A stretch of DNA of 64,000 nucleotides from Pseudomonadota bacterium (GTDB taxonomy: Bacteria; Myxococcota_A; UBA9042; CAIXZC01). Shown piece after piece: positions 12,061 to 54,778 of the stretch. A model generated the notes under the pieces. That model searched no databases and had not been told where the DNA came from. It saw nothing but the letters and a program-made list of their open reading frames with translations. The position numbers were made by a program, and so were the translations under genes. The first letter of the stretch is position 1, and every line of letters begins with the position of its first letter. The stretch lies in the NCBI GenBank assembly GCA_043815665.1, contig JBDRIT010000025.1, positions 67,487 through 131,486 on the forward strand, in the 5' to 3' direction.

Positions 12061-12288
12061 TCAGCGCGCCAGTTCGTCCTCGAAGTACTGGATGATCGCC
12101 CGGAGCTGGGCCTCGTGCTGCTCCTCCTGCCCGGCCATCTCCTCGAAGAGGCGACGGGCCATCTCGCCGGGGGCGCGCTTCGCCGCGGCGAGGTAGCGAT
12201 CCCGGGCCTCCCGCTCCCGTGGGATGGCGAGGGAGGCGACCTCGATCATGTAGCGCAGCTCCCGGGCCCGTGGGTTGTCGTCGCGCAT
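12061..12288 (-). CDS. small hypothetical protein (possibly ferritin/rubrerythrin-like helical)
   Basis: 75 aa, helical, E/R-rich with EEMAGQEEQHEAQLRAI. Sits immediately upstream of the CA-like gene. Confidence 0.4.
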   Translation of the reverse strand: MRDDNPRARELRYMIEVASLAIPREREARDRYLAAAKRAPGEMARRLFEEMAGQEEQHEAQLRAIIQYFEDELAR

Positions 12289-12297
12289 GCCGTCTCC

Positions 12298-12978
12298 TCA
12301 GGAGGCCGGGAAGGTGATGCGGCCGCCGACCATCCCCAGCCCGAGGACCACGGGCAGGTGGAGCGCCAGCACGACGTCGTAGGCCACCCCGCCCCCCGCG
12401 AAGCGGAGCCCGAGGGCCACCGCCCCCAGGGACAGCAGCAGGAAGGAGAGGCCCATCTTCCACCCGAAGAGGGGGGTGATCCGCCCGCCGTACTGGTACC
12501 GCCAGTCCATGAGCCCGGACAGGATCGACGCAGGCGCCATGGCGAGACCGATCACCAGGTTGATCAGGGCCGCGGTCTCCAGGGCATCGGAGCCCGCGAG
12601 CCGCCCGACCAGGTTCAGGACCGCAGCCACCGCGCAGAGCGCGATGGGGAAGTGCACCGAGGCCGGATGGGCGTGGAGCCTGTAGGCCAGCGCAGCCAGA
12701 GGCGGCACCGGCTCCGGCTCCACCACGGGGACCGTCACCGGATCCCGGACCACCCCGACCCGGACCAGGCGCTCCAGGCGCTCCTTCGGGTGGGGCGCCA
12801 TGGTGATCTCGCGGCTCAGGTCCGCCCCCGCGCTGTGGGCGCGGACGTGGCTGCCTCCGCGCCAGAGGGCGGACCCGCTCGCGTCGTACACCACCCCGTC
12901 CACGGCGACGTAGGCCGGGTGGCCGTCACGACCGTCGAAGTCCGCCAGCTCTTCCCGTGTGAAGATCCTCTCGTTCAT
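12298..12978 (-). CDS. cytochrome b5-like heme/steroid-binding domain fused to a 4-TM membrane domain
   Basis: N-terminal FTREELADFDGRDGHPAYVAVDGVVYDASGSALWRGGSH matches the cyt-b5-like fold. The C-terminal half is hydrophobic. Confidence 0.7.
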   Translation of the reverse strand: MNERIFTREELADFDGRDGHPAYVAVDGVVYDASGSALWRGGSHVRAHSAGADLSREITMAPHPKERLERLVRVGVVRDPVTVPVVEPEPVPPLAALAYRLHAHPASVHFPIALCAVAAVLNLVGRLAGSDALETAALINLVIGLAMAPASILSGLMDWRYQYGGRITPLFGWKMGLSFLLLSLGAVALGLRFAGGGVAYDVVLALHLPVVLGLGMVGGRITFPAS

Positions 12979-13083
12979 GGACGGAATCTACCACAGACAG
13001 CTTGTCCGTTGAAGCGCGGCGTTGACCTTGGTATACCCGTGTCACAGGATCGTGGGCCCATCCCTGATGACGAGGCGGAGACC

Positions 13084-14748
13084 ATGTCGGAACCCCTGAA
13101 GTTCAACGTCGCAGCCCACCCGCCCCGCATCACGCGGGACTTCCCCTCCGAGGAGTTCAGCGGTCCCAGGCTGGACGCGTTCAACGAACGCCACATCGAG
13201 GTGCTCGCGCGCTACGGCATCCAGGCAGTGTCCATCCGACGCATACGCATCGACGAGAAGACCAACGGCCGGTCGAACCTGGGCGTGTTCCGCAACAAGC
13301 AGCTCAACCAGAGCGTGCTCCTCGCCGCAGGCCTGCCCGCAATCGCCGTGGCGCTCACCGGGCGCGGCGCGTTCGCCGCGCTGCCGAAGGCGGAGCAGAC
13401 CCCGGACCGCAAGGAGGCCCTCAAGCGGTCCAACGACCGGGTCGCGGCCCTGGCCATGGGGGAGACCTTCCAGCACACCTGCGACGCCCTCGAGGCGGGC
13501 GAGGACGTCCTGATCTCCACGGCGATCACCGAGGGCGTCCGGGCCAAGCCCGGGTACGAGGCCGGCGGAAATCCCACCATCGCGGTGGGCGCGGTCTTTG
13601 GCAAGGCGGAGATCCGGGCCCGATACGGCCGCCCGATGCCCCGGGACGTGACCCTGCTGTCCATGGGCAATGACGTCATCGACGGGACCACGAAGTCGGT
13701 CATGGGGACCCACAGCTCCCTCACATCGGTCTTCCTGAGCGAGTCGGGGGTGAAGCGCCACCTGCCGGACATCTATGTTCAACGTTGGGCCGCTGCGGTC
13801 CCCTTCGAGGAGTTCAATCCCCGGGACCTGGGCAGCGCGGACGTGGCCCGCCTCTTCGCGGATGCCTACGGGATCCCCGTAGAGCAGATGTCCGCGTTCT
13901 TCATCGACCGGCCCCGACACGTCCCGGCGATCGAGGCCCTCAACCGCATCGGGGTCTCCACACCCATGGACACGGACGGGGACCTCTTCCCCGGGGTCCT
14001 CCTGGGGGTCGAGGGGATCTCCTTCCCCGACGGCCGGGGGCTCATGTCCATGATCGGCGAGATCGGCGGCTCCGCGGAGTGGGCCGTGGCCGTCCTCCCC
14101 CTGGTCTGGCGTGGCGGCAACGCGCTGGGGATGCTCACCTCCCAGTCGAGCATCCAGCGGAAGGACCTGAGCCCGGAGGAGCTCTGGGCGGAGCGATTCC
14201 ACTACACCGCGGACGAGCTCCTGATGATCCAGGACGCCCGCTTCGAGCTGAAGCCCTGGTTCACCATCGAGGACATCATGGAGAACCCCTACGCGGGCGG
14301 CGTCTCCGCGTTCGGCGCGATCACGGACAACATCTACCTGCCCACGTTGAAGGGTGTCCGGGTGGACGAGGACGCGGGGCGGCTCTGCACCTCGGTGCTC
14401 ACGGTCAACTCCCTGGGCCTCGCGGACCAGTGGGACATCGAGTTCGAGGCCGCCGCCGGGGTCGGCGCCGTGCGGGACGCCATGCGGACCCCGAAGGAGC
14501 TGCTCCGGGGCCTCGACCAGGCCGGCATGGAGCGCGCCATCGGCGCCATGACCGACCACCCGACCCGTCGCGAGACCTTCCGGATCTTCTTCGGCAACGA
14601 ATACTACGGCGCGCTGGCGCACTCCGTGGGCCGGATGATGGTCCTCGATCGGACGGTCCGGTCCCTCATCGAGCGCGGCGCGCTGGAGCCCCTGGACACC
14701 ATGATCATCGCGGCGGCCAAGGCCGTGGTGCCCGACTGGTTCATCTGA
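13084..14748 (+). CDS. GlpX-like (class II fructose-1,6-bisphosphatase fold) family protein with ~200-aa C-terminal extension
   Basis: VIDGTTKSVMG aligns with the GlpX DPIDGT motif; DRPRH and GEIGGSAEWAVAV align with GlpX's KPRHD and GIGGAPEGVVSAA. The protein is 554 aa, against ~330 for GlpX. The leading part of the 877-aa ORF-track entry is antisense to real genes. Confidence 0.55.
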   Translation: MSEPLKFNVAAHPPRITRDFPSEEFSGPRLDAFNERHIEVLARYGIQAVSIRRIRIDEKTNGRSNLGVFRNKQLNQSVLLAAGLPAIAVALTGRGAFAALPKAEQTPDRKEALKRSNDRVAALAMGETFQHTCDALEAGEDVLISTAITEGVRAKPGYEAGGNPTIAVGAVFGKAEIRARYGRPMPRDVTLLSMGNDVIDGTTKSVMGTHSSLTSVFLSESGVKRHLPDIYVQRWAAAVPFEEFNPRDLGSADVARLFADAYGIPVEQMSAFFIDRPRHVPAIEALNRIGVSTPMDTDGDLFPGVLLGVEGISFPDGRGLMSMIGEIGGSAEWAVAVLPLVWRGGNALGMLTSQSSIQRKDLSPEELWAERFHYTADELLMIQDARFELKPWFTIEDIMENPYAGGVSAFGAITDNIYLPTLKGVRVDEDAGRLCTSVLTVNSLGLADQWDIEFEAAAGVGAVRDAMRTPKELLRGLDQAGMERAIGAMTDHPTRRETFRIFFGNEYYGALAHSVGRMMVLDRTVRSLIERGALEPLDTMIIAAAKAVVPDWFI

Positions 14749-14821: not shown

Positions 14822-16282
14822 ATGAAAACGTCGCAACGAATCACCCTGGCGCTGCTCTTCACGGTCCTTTGCTCCGACGGGTGCATCCGGTCACGCTGCT
14901 ACCGCGACCGGGACTGCCCCGGCGGCCAGGTCTGCAACAGCGCCACCGGCGTCTGCGTCGTCCCGGACTGCATCGGTGACGACGCCTGCCTGGCGGGCCA
15001 GATCTGCCAGGCCAACGTCTGCGTGCCGGGCTGCCTCGGGGACGAGGACTGCGGCACGGCGAAGGTCTGCGTCGCGGGCCACTGCGTCCTCGAGACCTCC
15101 TCGGGGTCCGGCTGCATCTGCATCGCGGCGCCCTTGTTCTGCGCGCAGGACATCCACCCGGGCTCAACGACCTTCCAGTCCGAGATCTGCATGGGAGACA
15201 CCTCCCAGACCGCAAAGCTCCTCTTCTTCGGGAACACCGGGTGATTCCACTGCCGTCACCAGTTCGGTGACCTCTGGGACATGAAGGAGACGTTGCTGGC
15301 GGACGGGGTCGACAACGTCGAGCTCTGGTTCATCCAGATCGGGACCCAGGACAAGACGCCGGAGGAGGTCGAGGATCTCATCGGGGAGTACCCGACCACG
15401 GTCCTGGACGACGACCCCGAGCAGACCATCTGGACCGCCTTCGCGTCCACCTGGTACGAGGCGGTCCTCCTGGACCCGGAGGACTGCATCGTCGCGAAGT
15501 TCGGGCCCTTCACGACGTTCCCCCAGGATCCCGACGAGATCATCCCCCTGTGGAAGGGCGCCGCCCTCGGGACCCTCCCCTGTGACGAGCCCGAGCCCGG
15601 GCCGGAGTCCGGGGCCGAGCCCGCGCCCGACGTCTCCGAGCCGATGCCCGATGTCTTCGAGCACGACACCGTGGACGTCGTCGACATCCTCGACCTCGTG
15701 GACGCCATCGAAGATGTCCCCACGGACACGCTGGCGGACGTCCCCACGGACACCCCCGCGGATCTCCCCGGAGAGATCCCGGAGATCCCCCCCTGGTGGT
15801 GCCAGGTGGACGCGCCCCCGGCGCCCGTCGGCCCGGGGGATCCGCTGCCGTTCTTCACCTGCGTCGACATGAACCCCATGTCACCCACCGAAGGGGAGGT
15901 GGTCTCCAAGTCCTCCCTCAAGCAGAGGGTCTGGCTGGGATACGCCGGGAGTGGTGGCTGAGGCTTCTGCGTGCAGCAGGCTGCTGCGCTCGAAGACCTC
16001 GTGCTGGAGGCCCAGGCCCAGGGATGGGACGACCTGACCGCGGTGTTCCTCAACCAGGCCCAGGACGTAACCACCTTCGACTACCTGTCCACGGAGTTCG
16101 GCGGCCCCGCGGTCCAGGATCCCGATGACGGCAGCCTCTGGGCGGCCTTCGGGCTGGGCTACAACGGCGCGATGATCGTCGACCGGGACGGCGTGATGAC
16201 CGCGCTCTTCTCGACGCCATCGTTCCCCGATGACGCCGAGGCGATCTCCGCAGCCCTGCAGGAGGCCCTCGAGCAGCCGTGA
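14822..16282 (+). CDS. predicted selenoprotein: exported Cys-rich protein with two thioredoxin-fold (TlpA-like) domains, each with a UxxC active site (in-frame TGA at 15242-15244 and 15959-15961)
   Basis: Three ORF-track entries (14786-15244, 15281-15961, 15971-16282) share one frame and are separated only by TGA. FFGNTG-TGA-FHC and GYAGSGG-TGA-GFC each fall exactly on the WCxxC position of a redoxin fold. The rest of each fold continues after the TGA. A hairpin lies 9-10 nt after each TGA. Confidence 0.65.
15255..15271 (+). promoter_or_regulatory. candidate bacterial SECIS-like hairpin 1 (GTCACC-AGTTC-GGTGAC), 10 nt downstream of TGA 15242-15244
   Basis: Perfect 6-bp stem with a 5-nt loop containing GUU. 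The spacing is typical of bacterial SECIS apical hairpins. Confidence 0.45.
15971..15989 (+). promoter_or_regulatory. candidate bacterial SECIS-like hairpin 2 (GTGCAGCA-GGC-TGCTGCGC), 9 nt downstream of TGA 15959-15961
   Basis: 8-bp stem (one G.U pair) with a GGC loop. Confidence 0.45.
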
Positions 16283-54151: not shown

Positions 54152-54778
54152 CTAAAACCCCACCTTCGGCGGCTTCTTCGTGGCCTCCTTCTCGGCCTCG
54201 TCCAGCTCGTAGTATGGCGCCTCCTCGAGGTCGGTCATGCCAGCGAAGAACCGCCCGAAGAAGGAGCGACGGTACGCGTTCAGGGCCCGGGCAGCCTCGT
54301 TGTAGCGCTTGCGGGCCACTGCGATGCGGTTCTCCGTGCCCTCGATGGAGTCCTGGAGCTTGAGGAAGGACTGGTTGGCCTTGAGGTCAGGGTACTTCTC
54401 CTTCAGGAGGAGGAGCCGGGACAGCGCCCCATCCAGGCCCGAGGCGGCCTTGATCTTGTCCGTCATGGAGCCGCCCTTGGCCGCGGAGAAGTACGCCTTC
54501 CTCGCGTCGGCGAGGTGGGTGAAGACCTCCTTCTCGTGCTTCGCGTAGCCCTTCACGGTCTCCACGAGGTTGTCCAGGAGGTCCAGGCGTCGCTTGAGCT
54601 GGTTCTCCACCTCGCTCCAGCCCTCCTTGACCTGTTCGTCGTAGGTGACGCCCTTGTTGTACATCCGCACGAACCAGAGCCCTGCGATCAGGGCGATGAT
54701 CAGGAGAATGCCGACGGGCAGCAGGCAACCAAGCTTCCAGTTGAAGCCGGCGCGGCCGGGTGTGGAATCGTCGTTCAT
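54152..54778 (-). CDS. LemA family protein
   Basis: N-terminal TM then the LemA domain (VTYDEQVKEGWSEVENQLKRRLDLLDNLVETVKGYAKHEKEVF...). Confidence 0.9.
   Translation of the reverse strand: MNDDSTPGRAGFNWKLGCLLPVGILLIIALIAGLWFVRMYNKGVTYDEQVKEGWSEVENQLKRRLDLLDNLVETVKGYAKHEKEVFTHLADARKAYFSAAKGGSMTDKIKAASGLDGALSRLLLLKEKYPDLKANQSFLKLQDSIEGTENRIAVARKRYNEAARALNAYRRSFFGRFFAGMTDLEEAPYYELDEAEKEATKKPPKVGF

What the first reader, a model, noticed from the sequence alone, without database searches (positions are those of the whole stretch)
15242..15989. Two hairpins at SECIS-like spacing (9-10 nt) downstream of each in-frame TGA
After TGA(15242-15244) there is a 10-nt spacer, then GTCACC-AGTTC-GGTGAC (perfect 6 bp, 5-nt loop). 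After TGA(15959-15961) there is a 9-nt spacer, then GUGCAGCA-GGC-UGCUGCGC (8 bp with one G.U, loop GGC).

Bacterial SECIS elements are hairpins beginning ~11 nt 3' of the UGA, with conserved G/U in the apical loop that binds SelB. Finding a hairpin at this spacing at both sites, inside coding sequence, supports recoding rather than termination.
Basis: seen in the sequence. Interest (0 to 1): 0.75.

Follow-up and report, generated by a model that had tools for sequence, protein, structure and literature searches.

The report
Two selenocysteine-insertion hairpins in one gene
Both hairpins are real, conserved RNA signals of the ordinary bacterial kind that most likely tell the ribosome to read the two in-frame TGA codons as selenocysteine in a secreted two-domain thioredoxin-like lipoprotein, which makes this a solid but unsurprising case.

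Summary
Window 14822-16282 (+) is one reading frame with two in-frame TGA codons (15242, 15959). It encodes a lipoprotein with Cys-rich repeats and two thioredoxin-fold domains, whose redox motifs are U-FHC and U-GFC. Each TGA is followed by the hairpin described: 15255-15271 (6 bp, loop AGUUC) and 15971-15989 (8 bp, loop GGC).

Folding energy alone does not single them out. About 8% of positions have a 6-bp hairpin at that spacing, and hairpin 1 folds no better than shuffled sequence. The comparative evidence is decisive:
- I aligned 25 TGA sites from relatives in Myxococcales and other deltaproteobacterial MAGs and metagenomes. All carry the hairpin in the same register, with loop G(G/U)N starting 16-17 nt after UGA.
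- Six of eight pairs show compensatory changes.
- The stems use codons that are otherwise rare, and synonymous change is suppressed there.
- Nine homologous sites that have Cys instead of TGA lack the hairpin.
- Both elements meet every published bacterial SECIS criterion and resemble E. coli fdhF.

Not shown: SelB binding, actual Sec insertion, or Sec machinery in this genome. It is a new member of a known kind, of moderate interest.

The parts
14822..16282 (+). Single gene of 486 codons that reads through two in-frame TGAs. It has a lipoprotein signal (…SDGC), Cys-rich repeats, thioredoxin-fold domain 1 (motif GNTG-U-FHC-R), an acidic/Pro-rich linker, and thioredoxin-fold domain 2 (motif GSGG-U-GFC-V).
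   Evidence: Translation. GC3 is 0.85/0.93/0.91 in the three segments. NCBIfam NF053656 scores 101.5 bits with two matched stretches. Pfam AhpC-TSA is a weak match. Syntenic homologues have the same split.
15242..15244 (+). TGA 1, a predicted selenocysteine codon at the first position of the UxxC redox motif of domain 1.
   Evidence: It is TGA in 7 related contigs. It aligns with TGC/TGT (Cys of CxxC) in 9 more distant homologues.
15255..15271 (+). SECIS hairpin 1: stem 15255-15260 with 15266-15271 (6 bp), loop AGUUC at 15261-15265. The loop starts 16 nt after the UGA.
   Evidence: -8.0 kcal/mol. Compensatory changes occur in L006 (GGCUCC/GGAGCC) and L018 (GUCUCC/GGAGAC). It contains the gene's only CGT codon and one of its three GGT codons. 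CM R1 scores it 52.6 bits.
15959..15961 (+). TGA 2, a predicted selenocysteine codon at the first position of the UxxC motif of domain 2.
   Evidence: It is TGA in all 18 domain-2 sites examined. Annotated homologues P0005-P0024 end exactly here. The downstream roughly 105 codons are conserved as protein.
15971..15989 (+). SECIS hairpin 2: stem 15971-15978 with 15982-15989 (8 bp, one U.G), loop GGC at 15979-15981. The loop starts 17 nt after the UGA.
   Evidence: -11.1 kcal/mol. Covariation in 18 sequences: 90.3% paired and 5 of 8 pairs with double changes. Both GCT codons of the gene lie in this stem. CM R1 scores it 59.2 bits.
15960..16000 (+). Possible lower helix that extends hairpin 2 in this sequence: 15960-15967 and 15969 pair with 15991-15995 and 15997-16000. 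It includes the GA of the UGA.
   Evidence: Predicted in the minimum-free-energy fold. Most of these pairs are kept in only about 40-70% of relatives (range 20-96%), so it is not established as part of the element.
16280..16282 (+). The true stop codon (TGA) of the gene. It overlaps the GTG start (16279) of the downstream TPR-protein gene.
   Evidence: The same C-terminus (…ALEQP) and stop occur in L001. CM R1 finds no SECIS-like match here.

Best explanation
The two hairpins are bacterial selenocysteine insertion sequences (SECIS), one for each in-frame UGA of a single mRNA.

Proposed mechanism, inferred from the established bacterial pathway as summarised in PMC13188914:
- SelB, carrying GTP and Sec-tRNA(Sec), binds the apical part of each hairpin. 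The stem is 6-8 bp and the loop is G(G/U)N, starting 16-17 nt after the UGA.
- When the UGA reaches the ribosomal A site, the tethered complex delivers selenocysteine instead of allowing termination.
- The ribosome then melts the hairpin and continues.

The product is a secreted lipoprotein of 486 residues. It has two ResA/DsbE/TlpA-like thioredoxin-fold domains, each with a U-x-x-C redox centre, and is presumably an extracytoplasmic thiol/selenol-disulfide oxidoreductase.

Shown here: the anatomy of the hairpins, their conservation and covariation, selection on their codons, their link to TGA rather than Cys, and the fold of a homologue's domain. Inferred: SelB binding, Sec insertion, and the enzyme's activity.
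For: 1. Reading frame and protein.
- One frame with high GC3 runs through both TGAs.
- Each TGA sits at the first position of a CxxC-type motif. In the AlphaFold model of homologue P0005, that motif lies at the N-terminus of helix 1 of a thioredoxin fold (domain 1 pLDDT above 90).
- The best PDB fold matches are DsbE, ResA and CcmG, with TM about 0.77.
- NF053656, 'TUGYCR motif thioredoxin fold (seleno)protein', matches both domains.

2. Sec/Cys pairing and conserved TGA.
- Site 1 is TGA in 7 contigs and Cys in 9 homologues.
- Site 2 is TGA in 18 of 18 sites.

3. Coding conservation continues after each TGA.

4. Both hairpins meet all four structural criteria of the published bacterial SECIS model: loop 3-9 nt, stem 4-16 bp, G in the first two loop positions, spacing 16-37 nt, and energy at or below -7.5 kcal/mol (criteria from PMC13188914; test).

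5. One register is shared by all 25 sites.
- The CAG that supplies the loop's first G is invariant.
- Covariation score is 0.522 against 0.114 in shuffles (0 of 500). Six of eight pairs show double changes. Slid controls reach at most 62% paired.
- Each site passes on its own, and RNAalifold predicts the same helix.

6. Selection at synonymous sites.
- GCT makes up 3.7% of Ala codons, yet both GCT codons of the gene lie in stem 2. The only CGT codon lies in stem 1.
- Resampling synonymous codons while keeping the peptide gives the observed pairing with a median probability of 0.016.
- Against close relatives, 0 of 26 (site 1) and 1 of 17 (site 2) conserved codons carry a synonymous change in the 10 codons after the TGAs. 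The rate elsewhere is 23-35%.

7. Negative control. The nine homologous Cys sites have no hairpin: best energy -5.0 to +2.1 kcal/mol, and 25.9% of core cells paired in that register.

8. Geometry matches E. coli fdhF, whose loop GGUC starts 18 nt after the UGA.

9. A covariance model built from the 25 sites hits only these two places in the 64-kb window (59.2 and 52.6 bits; the next best is 16.8 bits).
Against: - No selA, selB, selD or tRNA-Sec gene was seen in the window or in the fetched loci, so the organism's ability to insert Sec is assumed.
- No Rfam SECIS family matches.
- Hairpin 1 is short, and by energy it cannot be told apart from shuffled sequence.
- The 25 sites are phylogenetically related, and sites 1 and 2 are paralogous. 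The shuffle statistics therefore overstate independence.
- Part of the stem conservation is tied to a conserved peptide (C-x-x-Q-[QFL]-[AG]-x-x-L).
- The lower helix predicted for hairpin 2 is not conserved.
Confidence: 0.88

Rival explanations
1. The hairpins are by-products of a conserved helix-1 peptide (…C-V-Q-Q-A-A-A-L… and …C-R-H-Q-F-G-D-L…) encoded in GC-rich DNA. They have no RNA-level function, and the TGAs are recoded (or not) without them.
For: The stems overlap conserved residues, and the CAG (Gln) codon is invariant. Hairpins of 6 bp at this spacing follow 8.3% of positions. Hairpin 1 is not more stable than shuffles.
Against: - With the peptide held fixed, random synonymous codons give the observed pairing in only about 1.6% of draws (median).
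- The stems use codons that are rare elsewhere: GCT 3.7% of Ala codons, CGT 7.7% of Arg, GGT 6.9% of Gly.
- Amino-acid replacements come in compensating pairs: His to Leu with GGT to GGA; His to Leu plus Asp to Ala; Gln to Gly plus Ala to Ser.
- Homologous helix-1 regions after Cys codons do not pair (25.9% of core cells).
Confidence: 0.04
2. The TGAs are genuine stops. The locus would then be three separate small genes, or a decaying pseudogene, and the hairpins would be unrelated elements such as pause or attenuation structures.
For: Automatic gene callers annotate the three pieces separately in every relative. TGA is used as an ordinary stop elsewhere in the window.
Against: - Each TGA splits a thioredoxin fold between strand 1 and helix 1, exactly at the catalytic residue.
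- The same two TGAs recur in independent contigs whose flanks are diverged but under purifying selection.
- The Sec/Cys pair at site 1.
- No T-run follows either stem.
Confidence: 0.03
3. The hairpins promote UGA read-through without SelB. They might slow the ribosome so that a near-cognate tRNA (Trp, Cys or Arg) is inserted, giving a CxxC-like or WxxC protein rather than a selenoprotein.
For: Sec machinery was not observed in the data available. Structures downstream of a stop codon are known to stimulate stop-codon read-through in other systems (general knowledge).
Against: - The position is the catalytic Cys of CxxC, the classic Sec/Cys exchange site.
- The loop G(G/U)N and the 16-17 nt spacing match the SelB-dependent consensus and E. 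coli fdhF.
- The closest curated family is annotated as a selenoprotein family.
- Several paralogues per MAG carry the same TGA-plus-hairpin module, which is what dedicated machinery would predict.
Confidence: 0.05

Closest known systems
Bacterial SECIS elements; prototype E. coli fdhF, and the consensus model of Zhang and Gladyshev as given in PMC13188914
   Same: A hairpin inside the coding sequence directly 3' of an in-frame UGA. The small apical loop has G in its first two positions (pattern G[G/U]N). The loop starts 16-17 nt after the UGA, against 18 nt in fdhF. The energy is below -7.5 kcal/mol.
   Different: The primary sequence is unrelated to fdhF. There is no bulged U in the upper stem. 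The stem is only 6-8 bp, and no conserved lower helix is present. No Rfam SECIS model matches. Two elements occur in one mRNA.
NCBIfam NF053656, 'TUGYCR motif thioredoxin fold (seleno)protein'
   Same: Both domains align to nearly the whole 146-position model, with E about 2e-14 each. The Myxococcales relatives carry the literal motif T-U-G-[YSGAT]-C. The Sec lies at the first position of UxxC.
   Different: Single domains score 52-70 bits, below the 100-bit cut-off. The window protein reaches 101.5 bits only because it has two domains, and its close relative L001 reaches 91.4. The motifs here are G-U-FHC-R and G-U-GFC-V. The architecture (lipoprotein signal, Cys-rich repeats, two tandem domains) is not part of the model's definition.
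Extracytoplasmic thiol:disulfide oxidoreductases of the TlpA/ResA/DsbE(CcmG) type
   Same: The predicted fold of a homologue's domain 1 matches them: TM about 0.77 and rmsd about 3 Å over about 145 residues. The CxxC motif sits at the N-terminus of helix 1. A lipoprotein signal suggests export.
   Different: Sequence identity is only 15-20%, and no PDB match is detectable by sequence. Sec replaces the nucleophilic Cys. The domains are in tandem and fused to Cys-rich repeats.
Known bacterial double selenoproteins (listed with 2-3 Sec residues in PMC13188914)
   Same: More than one Sec codon in one bacterial ORF, each of which needs its own SECIS immediately downstream.
   Different: Here the two Sec residues sit in two paralogous domains, and their SECIS elements share one register. 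In most relatives only domain 2 has Sec.

Membership tests
Bacterial SECIS (consensus model, PMC13188914 Fig. 2) | Located in the coding region immediately 3' of an in-frame UGA | tested here: met
   Both hairpins start 9-10 nt after an in-frame TGA.
Bacterial SECIS (consensus model, PMC13188914 Fig. 2) | Apical loop of 3-9 nt and upper stem of 4-16 bp | tested here: met
   Site 1 has a 5-nt loop and 6 bp. Site 2 has a 3-nt loop and 8 bp.
Bacterial SECIS (consensus model, PMC13188914 Fig. 2) | At least one G in the first two loop positions (pattern N G [G/U] N N) | tested here: met
   The loops are A-G-U-U-C and G-G-C. Column 21 is an invariant G and column 22 is G or T in all 25 sites.
Bacterial SECIS (consensus model, PMC13188914 Fig. 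2) | 16-37 nt between the UGA and the apical loop | tested here: met
   16 nt and 17 nt, at the lower edge of the allowed range. E. coli fdhF has 18 nt.
Bacterial SECIS (consensus model, PMC13188914 Fig. 2) | Hairpin free energy at or below -7.5 kcal/mol | tested here: met
   -8.0 and -11.1 kcal/mol for the simple hairpins.
Bacterial SECIS (functional definition) | Bound by SelB and required for Sec insertion at the upstream UGA | not testable with these tools
   This needs binding and reporter assays. Indirect support comes from covariation and from the absence of the hairpin at Cys sites.
Bacterial SECIS (functional definition) | The host genome encodes selA, selB, selC (tRNA-Sec) and selD | tested here: inconclusive
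   None was found in the 64-kb window or the fetched loci. The rest of the genome is not available.
Rfam SECIS covariance models | Match to a curated SECIS family at the gathering score, or at E up to 10 | tested here: not met
   Searches gave no SECIS hit. The elements are therefore not members of any curated Rfam SECIS family.
Selenoprotein gene (comparative criteria, PMC1088965) | The in-frame TGA aligns with Cys in homologues (Sec/Cys pair) | tested here: met
   Site 1 aligns with TGC/TGT in 9 homologues. For site 2 no Cys form was retrieved, although the NF053656 family name implies that such forms exist.
Selenoprotein gene (comparative criteria, PMC1088965) | [quoted passage not shown] | tested here: met
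   7 contigs for site 1 and 18 for site 2. The pattern of synonymous and non-synonymous changes downstream indicates coding sequence.
NCBIfam NF053656 redoxin_TUGYCR | Whole-protein score at or above the curated cut-off of 100 bits | tested here: inconclusive
   The score is 101.5 bits, reached only through two matched domains of 53.8 bits each. Relatives score 52-91 bits. The protein is a divergent relative rather than a clear member.
NCBIfam NF053656 redoxin_TUGYCR | T-U-G-Y-C-R motif | tested here: inconclusive
   The window has G-U-F-H-C-R and G-U-G-F-C-V. The more distant Myxococcales homologues have T-U-G-[YSGAT]-C-[QGRAL].
Thioredoxin fold, TlpA/ResA/DsbE-like | Thioredoxin-like fold with the redox motif at the N-terminus of helix 1 | tested here: met
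   Tested on homologue P0005, not on the window protein itself. Domain 1 has pLDDT above 90, and C166-x-x-C169 lies at helix 167-185. Foldseek finds DsbE and ResA with TM 0.77.

The most novel reading that the evidence does not exclude
This clade may capture a recent Cys-to-Sec conversion. Most relatives have Cys in domain 1 and Sec only in domain 2. The window's clade turned the domain-1 Cys into Sec and built a second SECIS in exactly the same register, out of the domain's own helix-1 codons. It did so by recruiting rare T-ending codons and making paired amino-acid changes.

The evidence does not exclude two further points. First, these Myxococcota lipoproteins may form a selenoprotein subfamily that curated models do not capture at threshold. 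Second, the family may use a compact minimal SECIS (6-bp stem, G(G/U)N loop, no conserved lower helix). Together these would give a natural model for how SECIS elements arise inside coding sequence.
Probability: 0.45. Interest if true: 0.5.

Novelty: new member of a known kind. Interest (0 to 1): 0.35.

Why it matters
Gene callers cut this gene into three fragments in every relative examined. Recognising the two SECIS elements restores a 486-residue, two-selenocysteine secreted redox lipoprotein. It also shows that this Myxococcota-type genome most likely uses selenocysteine.

The family gives a clean comparative data set for what a minimal bacterial SECIS needs: 25 Sec sites that carry the hairpin and 9 homologous Cys sites that lack it. 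It also shows how an RNA structure constrains codon and amino-acid choice in the helix that follows a UxxC centre. None of this changes current understanding of Sec decoding.

Tried and rejected
- The search for homologous proteins with the full read-through protein (U replaced by C) returned nothing. The candidate words were probably swamped by the low-complexity linker.
The stop-free middle fragment worked.
- The exact middle ORF is not on record in the contig index.
- The first alignment, A1, was too diverse for the search for related loci.
- Rfam gave no SECIS match at the gathering score or at E up to 10.
- Sequence searches of the PDB with both domains gave only noise.
- Literature searches for 'TUGYCR' and for selenoprotein + Myxococc + SECIS found no paper.
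- The covariance-model hit at 54301-54358 (16.8 bits) does not start with TGA and lies antisense to a LemA/MamQ-like gene, so I rejected it as noise.
- The extended lower helix of hairpin 2 was tested and is not conserved.
- I considered and rejected reassignment of TGA, because TGA is the usual stop of genes in this window.
- I considered and rejected sequencing error or pseudogene, because the same TGAs occur in independent assemblies.
Full report
**Observation.** TGA 15242-15244 is followed by 10 nt and then GTCACC-AGTTC-GGTGAC (15255-15271). TGA 15959-15961 is followed by 9 nt and then GTGCAGCA-GGC-TGCTGCGC (15971-15989, one U.G pair). Both TGAs lie in the frame that opens at ATG 14822 and closes at TGA 16280-16282. 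GC3 is 0.85, 0.93 and 0.91 in the three segments.

**What the gene is.** The read-through product has 486 residues.
- It starts with a lipoprotein-type signal (…SDGC; relatives have …AGC or …SGC), followed by Cys-rich repeats.
- Two thioredoxin-fold domains follow, joined by an acidic/Pro-rich linker. The TGAs fall in GNTG-U-FHC-R and GSGG-U-GFC-V, which is the first position of a CxxC-type motif.
- NCBIfam NF053656, 'TUGYCR motif thioredoxin fold (seleno)protein', matches both domains at 53.8 bits each. The whole protein scores 101.5 bits against a cut-off of 100. Pfam gives only a weak AhpC-TSA match.
- No solved structure is detectable by sequence.
- An AlphaFold model of homologue P0005 has pLDDT above 90 in domain 1 and places C166-x-x-C169 at the N-terminus of helix 167-185. 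Its best PDB fold matches are DsbE, ResA, CcmG and related extracytoplasmic thiol:disulfide oxidoreductases, with TM about 0.77.

**Relatives.**
- An exhaustive HMMER search with the stop-free middle fragment found 36 cluster representatives.
- Four are close (50-71% identity). They start after TGA1, and two of them end at …AYAGSGG, which is TGA2.
- About twenty are roughly 400 residues long with the same architecture. They carry FFGSVxCSHCR (Cys at the TGA1 position) and end at …WIAYFGSCT, immediately before a TGA.
- I fetched the DNA for these, plus a genome scan and a metagenome scan.
- This gave 7 site-1 TGA contexts, 18 site-2 TGA contexts and 9 domain-1 Cys contexts.
- The genome hits are MAGs labelled uncultured Myxococcales, Deltaproteobacteria or uncultured proteobacterium. 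Several have two or three paralogues each.
- Synteny is conserved in close relatives: a glpX-like gene upstream, a TPR gene and transketolase downstream.

**Are the TGAs Sec codons?**
- Site 1 forms a Sec/Cys pair with 9 homologues.
- Site 2 is TGA in 18 of 18 sites.
- The sequence after each TGA is conserved as protein.
- TGA also serves as the ordinary stop of this gene and its neighbours.
- These are the standard comparative criteria for a selenoprotein gene (PMC1088965).

**Are the hairpins more than chance?** From the single sequence, only weakly.
- Hairpins of at least 6 bp at this spacing follow 8.3% of positions. Hairpins of at least 8 bp follow 0.8-0.9%.
- Hairpin 1 is no more stable than shuffles. 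Hairpin 2 reaches z = -2.67 only in its 42-nt context.
- Both pass every criterion of the published bacterial SECIS model: loop 3-9 nt, stem 4-16 bp, G in the first two loop positions, 16-37 nt spacing, energy at or below -7.5 kcal/mol (PMC13188914). So do 12.6% of all TGA triplets in the window. With the tight geometry seen here, 2.3% pass.

**Comparative evidence.** Aligned from the TGA without gaps, all 25 Sec sites place a hairpin in one register. Pairs join columns 13-20 with columns 24-31, and the loop occupies columns 21-23 as G(G/T)N. The two hairpin 'types' differ only in whether the innermost pair is closed.
- The five pairs 15-19 with 25-29 form in all 25 sequences. Overall 86% of cells are paired, against 63.7% in shuffles (0 of 500).
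- Six of eight pairs show double-sided changes. The covariation score is 0.522 against 0.114 (0 of 500). Slid controls reach at most 62% paired.
- Site 2 alone gives 90.3% against 74.6%, with double changes in 5 of 8 pairs. Site 1 alone gives 97.6% against 86.7%, with double changes in 2 of 6 pairs.
- RNAalifold independently predicts the shared 6-bp helix.
- Examples of compensation in hairpin 1: GUCACC/GGUGAC becomes GGCUCC/GGAGCC in L006 (His to Leu plus Asp to Ala). It becomes GUCUCC/GGAGAC in L018 (His to Leu, compensated by a synonymous GGT to GGA).
- Example in hairpin 2: GUGCAGCA/UGCUGCGC becomes GUGGGGCA/UGCCUCAC in L003 (Gln to Gly plus Ala to Ser).

**RNA-level selection, separated from peptide conservation.**
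- GCT is 3.7% of Ala codons in confident genes of the window. The gene's only two GCT codons (of 43 Ala codons) are the adjacent GCT GCT in stem 2.
- The gene's only CGT codon and one of its three GGT codons are in stem 1.
- Holding each peptide fixed and resampling synonymous codons from local usage reproduces the observed pairing with a median probability of 0.016.
- Against three close relatives, 0 of 26 conserved codons (site 1) and 1 of 17 (site 2) carry a synonymous change in the ten codons after the TGAs. The rate elsewhere in the gene is 23-35%.
- At the nine homologous Cys sites the best hairpin has -5.0 to +2.1 kcal/mol. Only 25.9% of core cells pair in the Sec-site register.
- A covariance model built from the 25 sites finds only 15959 (59.2 bits) and 15242 (52.6 bits) in the 64-kb window. 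The next hit scores 16.8 bits and is noise.

**Comparison with what is known.**
- I first checked my recalled E. coli fdhF SECIS sequence against the E. coli genome collection. It matches at 100% in 5419 genomes. Its loop GGUC starts 18 nt after the UGA, against 16 and 17 nt here.
- The loops fit the consensus N-G-[G/U]-N-N.
- No Rfam family matches. This is in line with the reported diversity of bacterial SECIS sequences.
- The lower helix predicted for hairpin 2 in this sequence is not conserved.
- Bacterial proteins with two or three Sec residues are already catalogued.
- The family is related to the curated NF053656 model but falls mostly below its threshold. Single domains score 52-70 bits, and close relative L001 scores 91.4 bits.

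**Mechanism.** This is inferred from the established pathway. SelB, carrying GTP and Sec-tRNA(Sec), binds each hairpin's apical region. It delivers Sec when the UGA, 9-10 nt upstream of the stem, is in the A site. The ribosome then unwinds the hairpin. Two such events give a protein with two UxxC centres.

**Limits.**
- No Sec machinery or tRNA-Sec was seen in the window or the fetched loci.
- SelB binding and Sec insertion are untested.
- The aligned sites are related by descent, so the shuffle counts are not probabilities.

**Verdict.** These are two bona fide-looking bacterial SECIS elements in a two-Sec thioredoxin-fold lipoprotein. This is a new member of a known kind, and the interest is moderate.

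Noticed in passing
L011:1439-2977, L013:302-2554, L015:1298-2944, L014:934-2150: The same C-terminal T-U-G-x-C thioredoxin domain, with the same SECIS hairpin, is attached to quite different N-terminal regions. These are long Cys-rich 'C-DDGDPCT' repeat proteins, some with Kazal-like segments. Two or three such paralogues occur per Myxococcales or deltaproteobacterial MAG. The Sec domain plus its SECIS behaves as a reusable module.
   Followed up: partly
L004:1854-2684, L005:191-1021, L006:917-1813: Close relatives exist as single-domain versions. They keep TGA1 and hairpin 1 but lack the linker and domain 2 altogether, in the same gene neighbourhood (glpX-like upstream, TPR and transketolase downstream).
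   Followed up: partly
window 16279-16282; L004:2681-2684: The selenoprotein gene's true stop overlaps the start of the downstream TPR-protein gene (GTGA here, ATGA in L004). This suggests translational coupling within a conserved operon-like block: glpX-like gene, selenoprotein, TPR protein, small ORF, transketolase.
   Followed up: no
window 12115-14748 (+): The upstream ORF of 877 codons matches the FBPase_glpX family only in residues 520-710. The corresponding genes in relatives have 555-561 codons, so the real start here is probably well downstream of 12115.
   Followed up: no
L008:3665-3712, L021:2246-2293, L023:1774-1821: Some domain-2 sites carry the 'site-1 type' hairpin (peptide Q-F-G or Q-L-A, loop AGUUC, GUU or AGUUG) instead of the QQAAA/GGC type. 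The two forms therefore interconvert within one register.
   Followed up: yes
window 15256-16074 (-) and many other long antisense ORFs: Long open frames on the opposite strand (for example 272 codons antisense to the selenoprotein gene, GC3 0.92) are a side effect of 66-72% GC. GC3 alone does not tell sense from antisense here.
   Followed up: no
window 54152-54778 (-): A LemA/MamQ-like protein (NF040966, 91.9 bits, below its cut-off of 250). The only sub-threshold covariance-model hit in the window (54301-54358, + strand) lies antisense to it, does not start with TGA, and is noise.
   Followed up: yes
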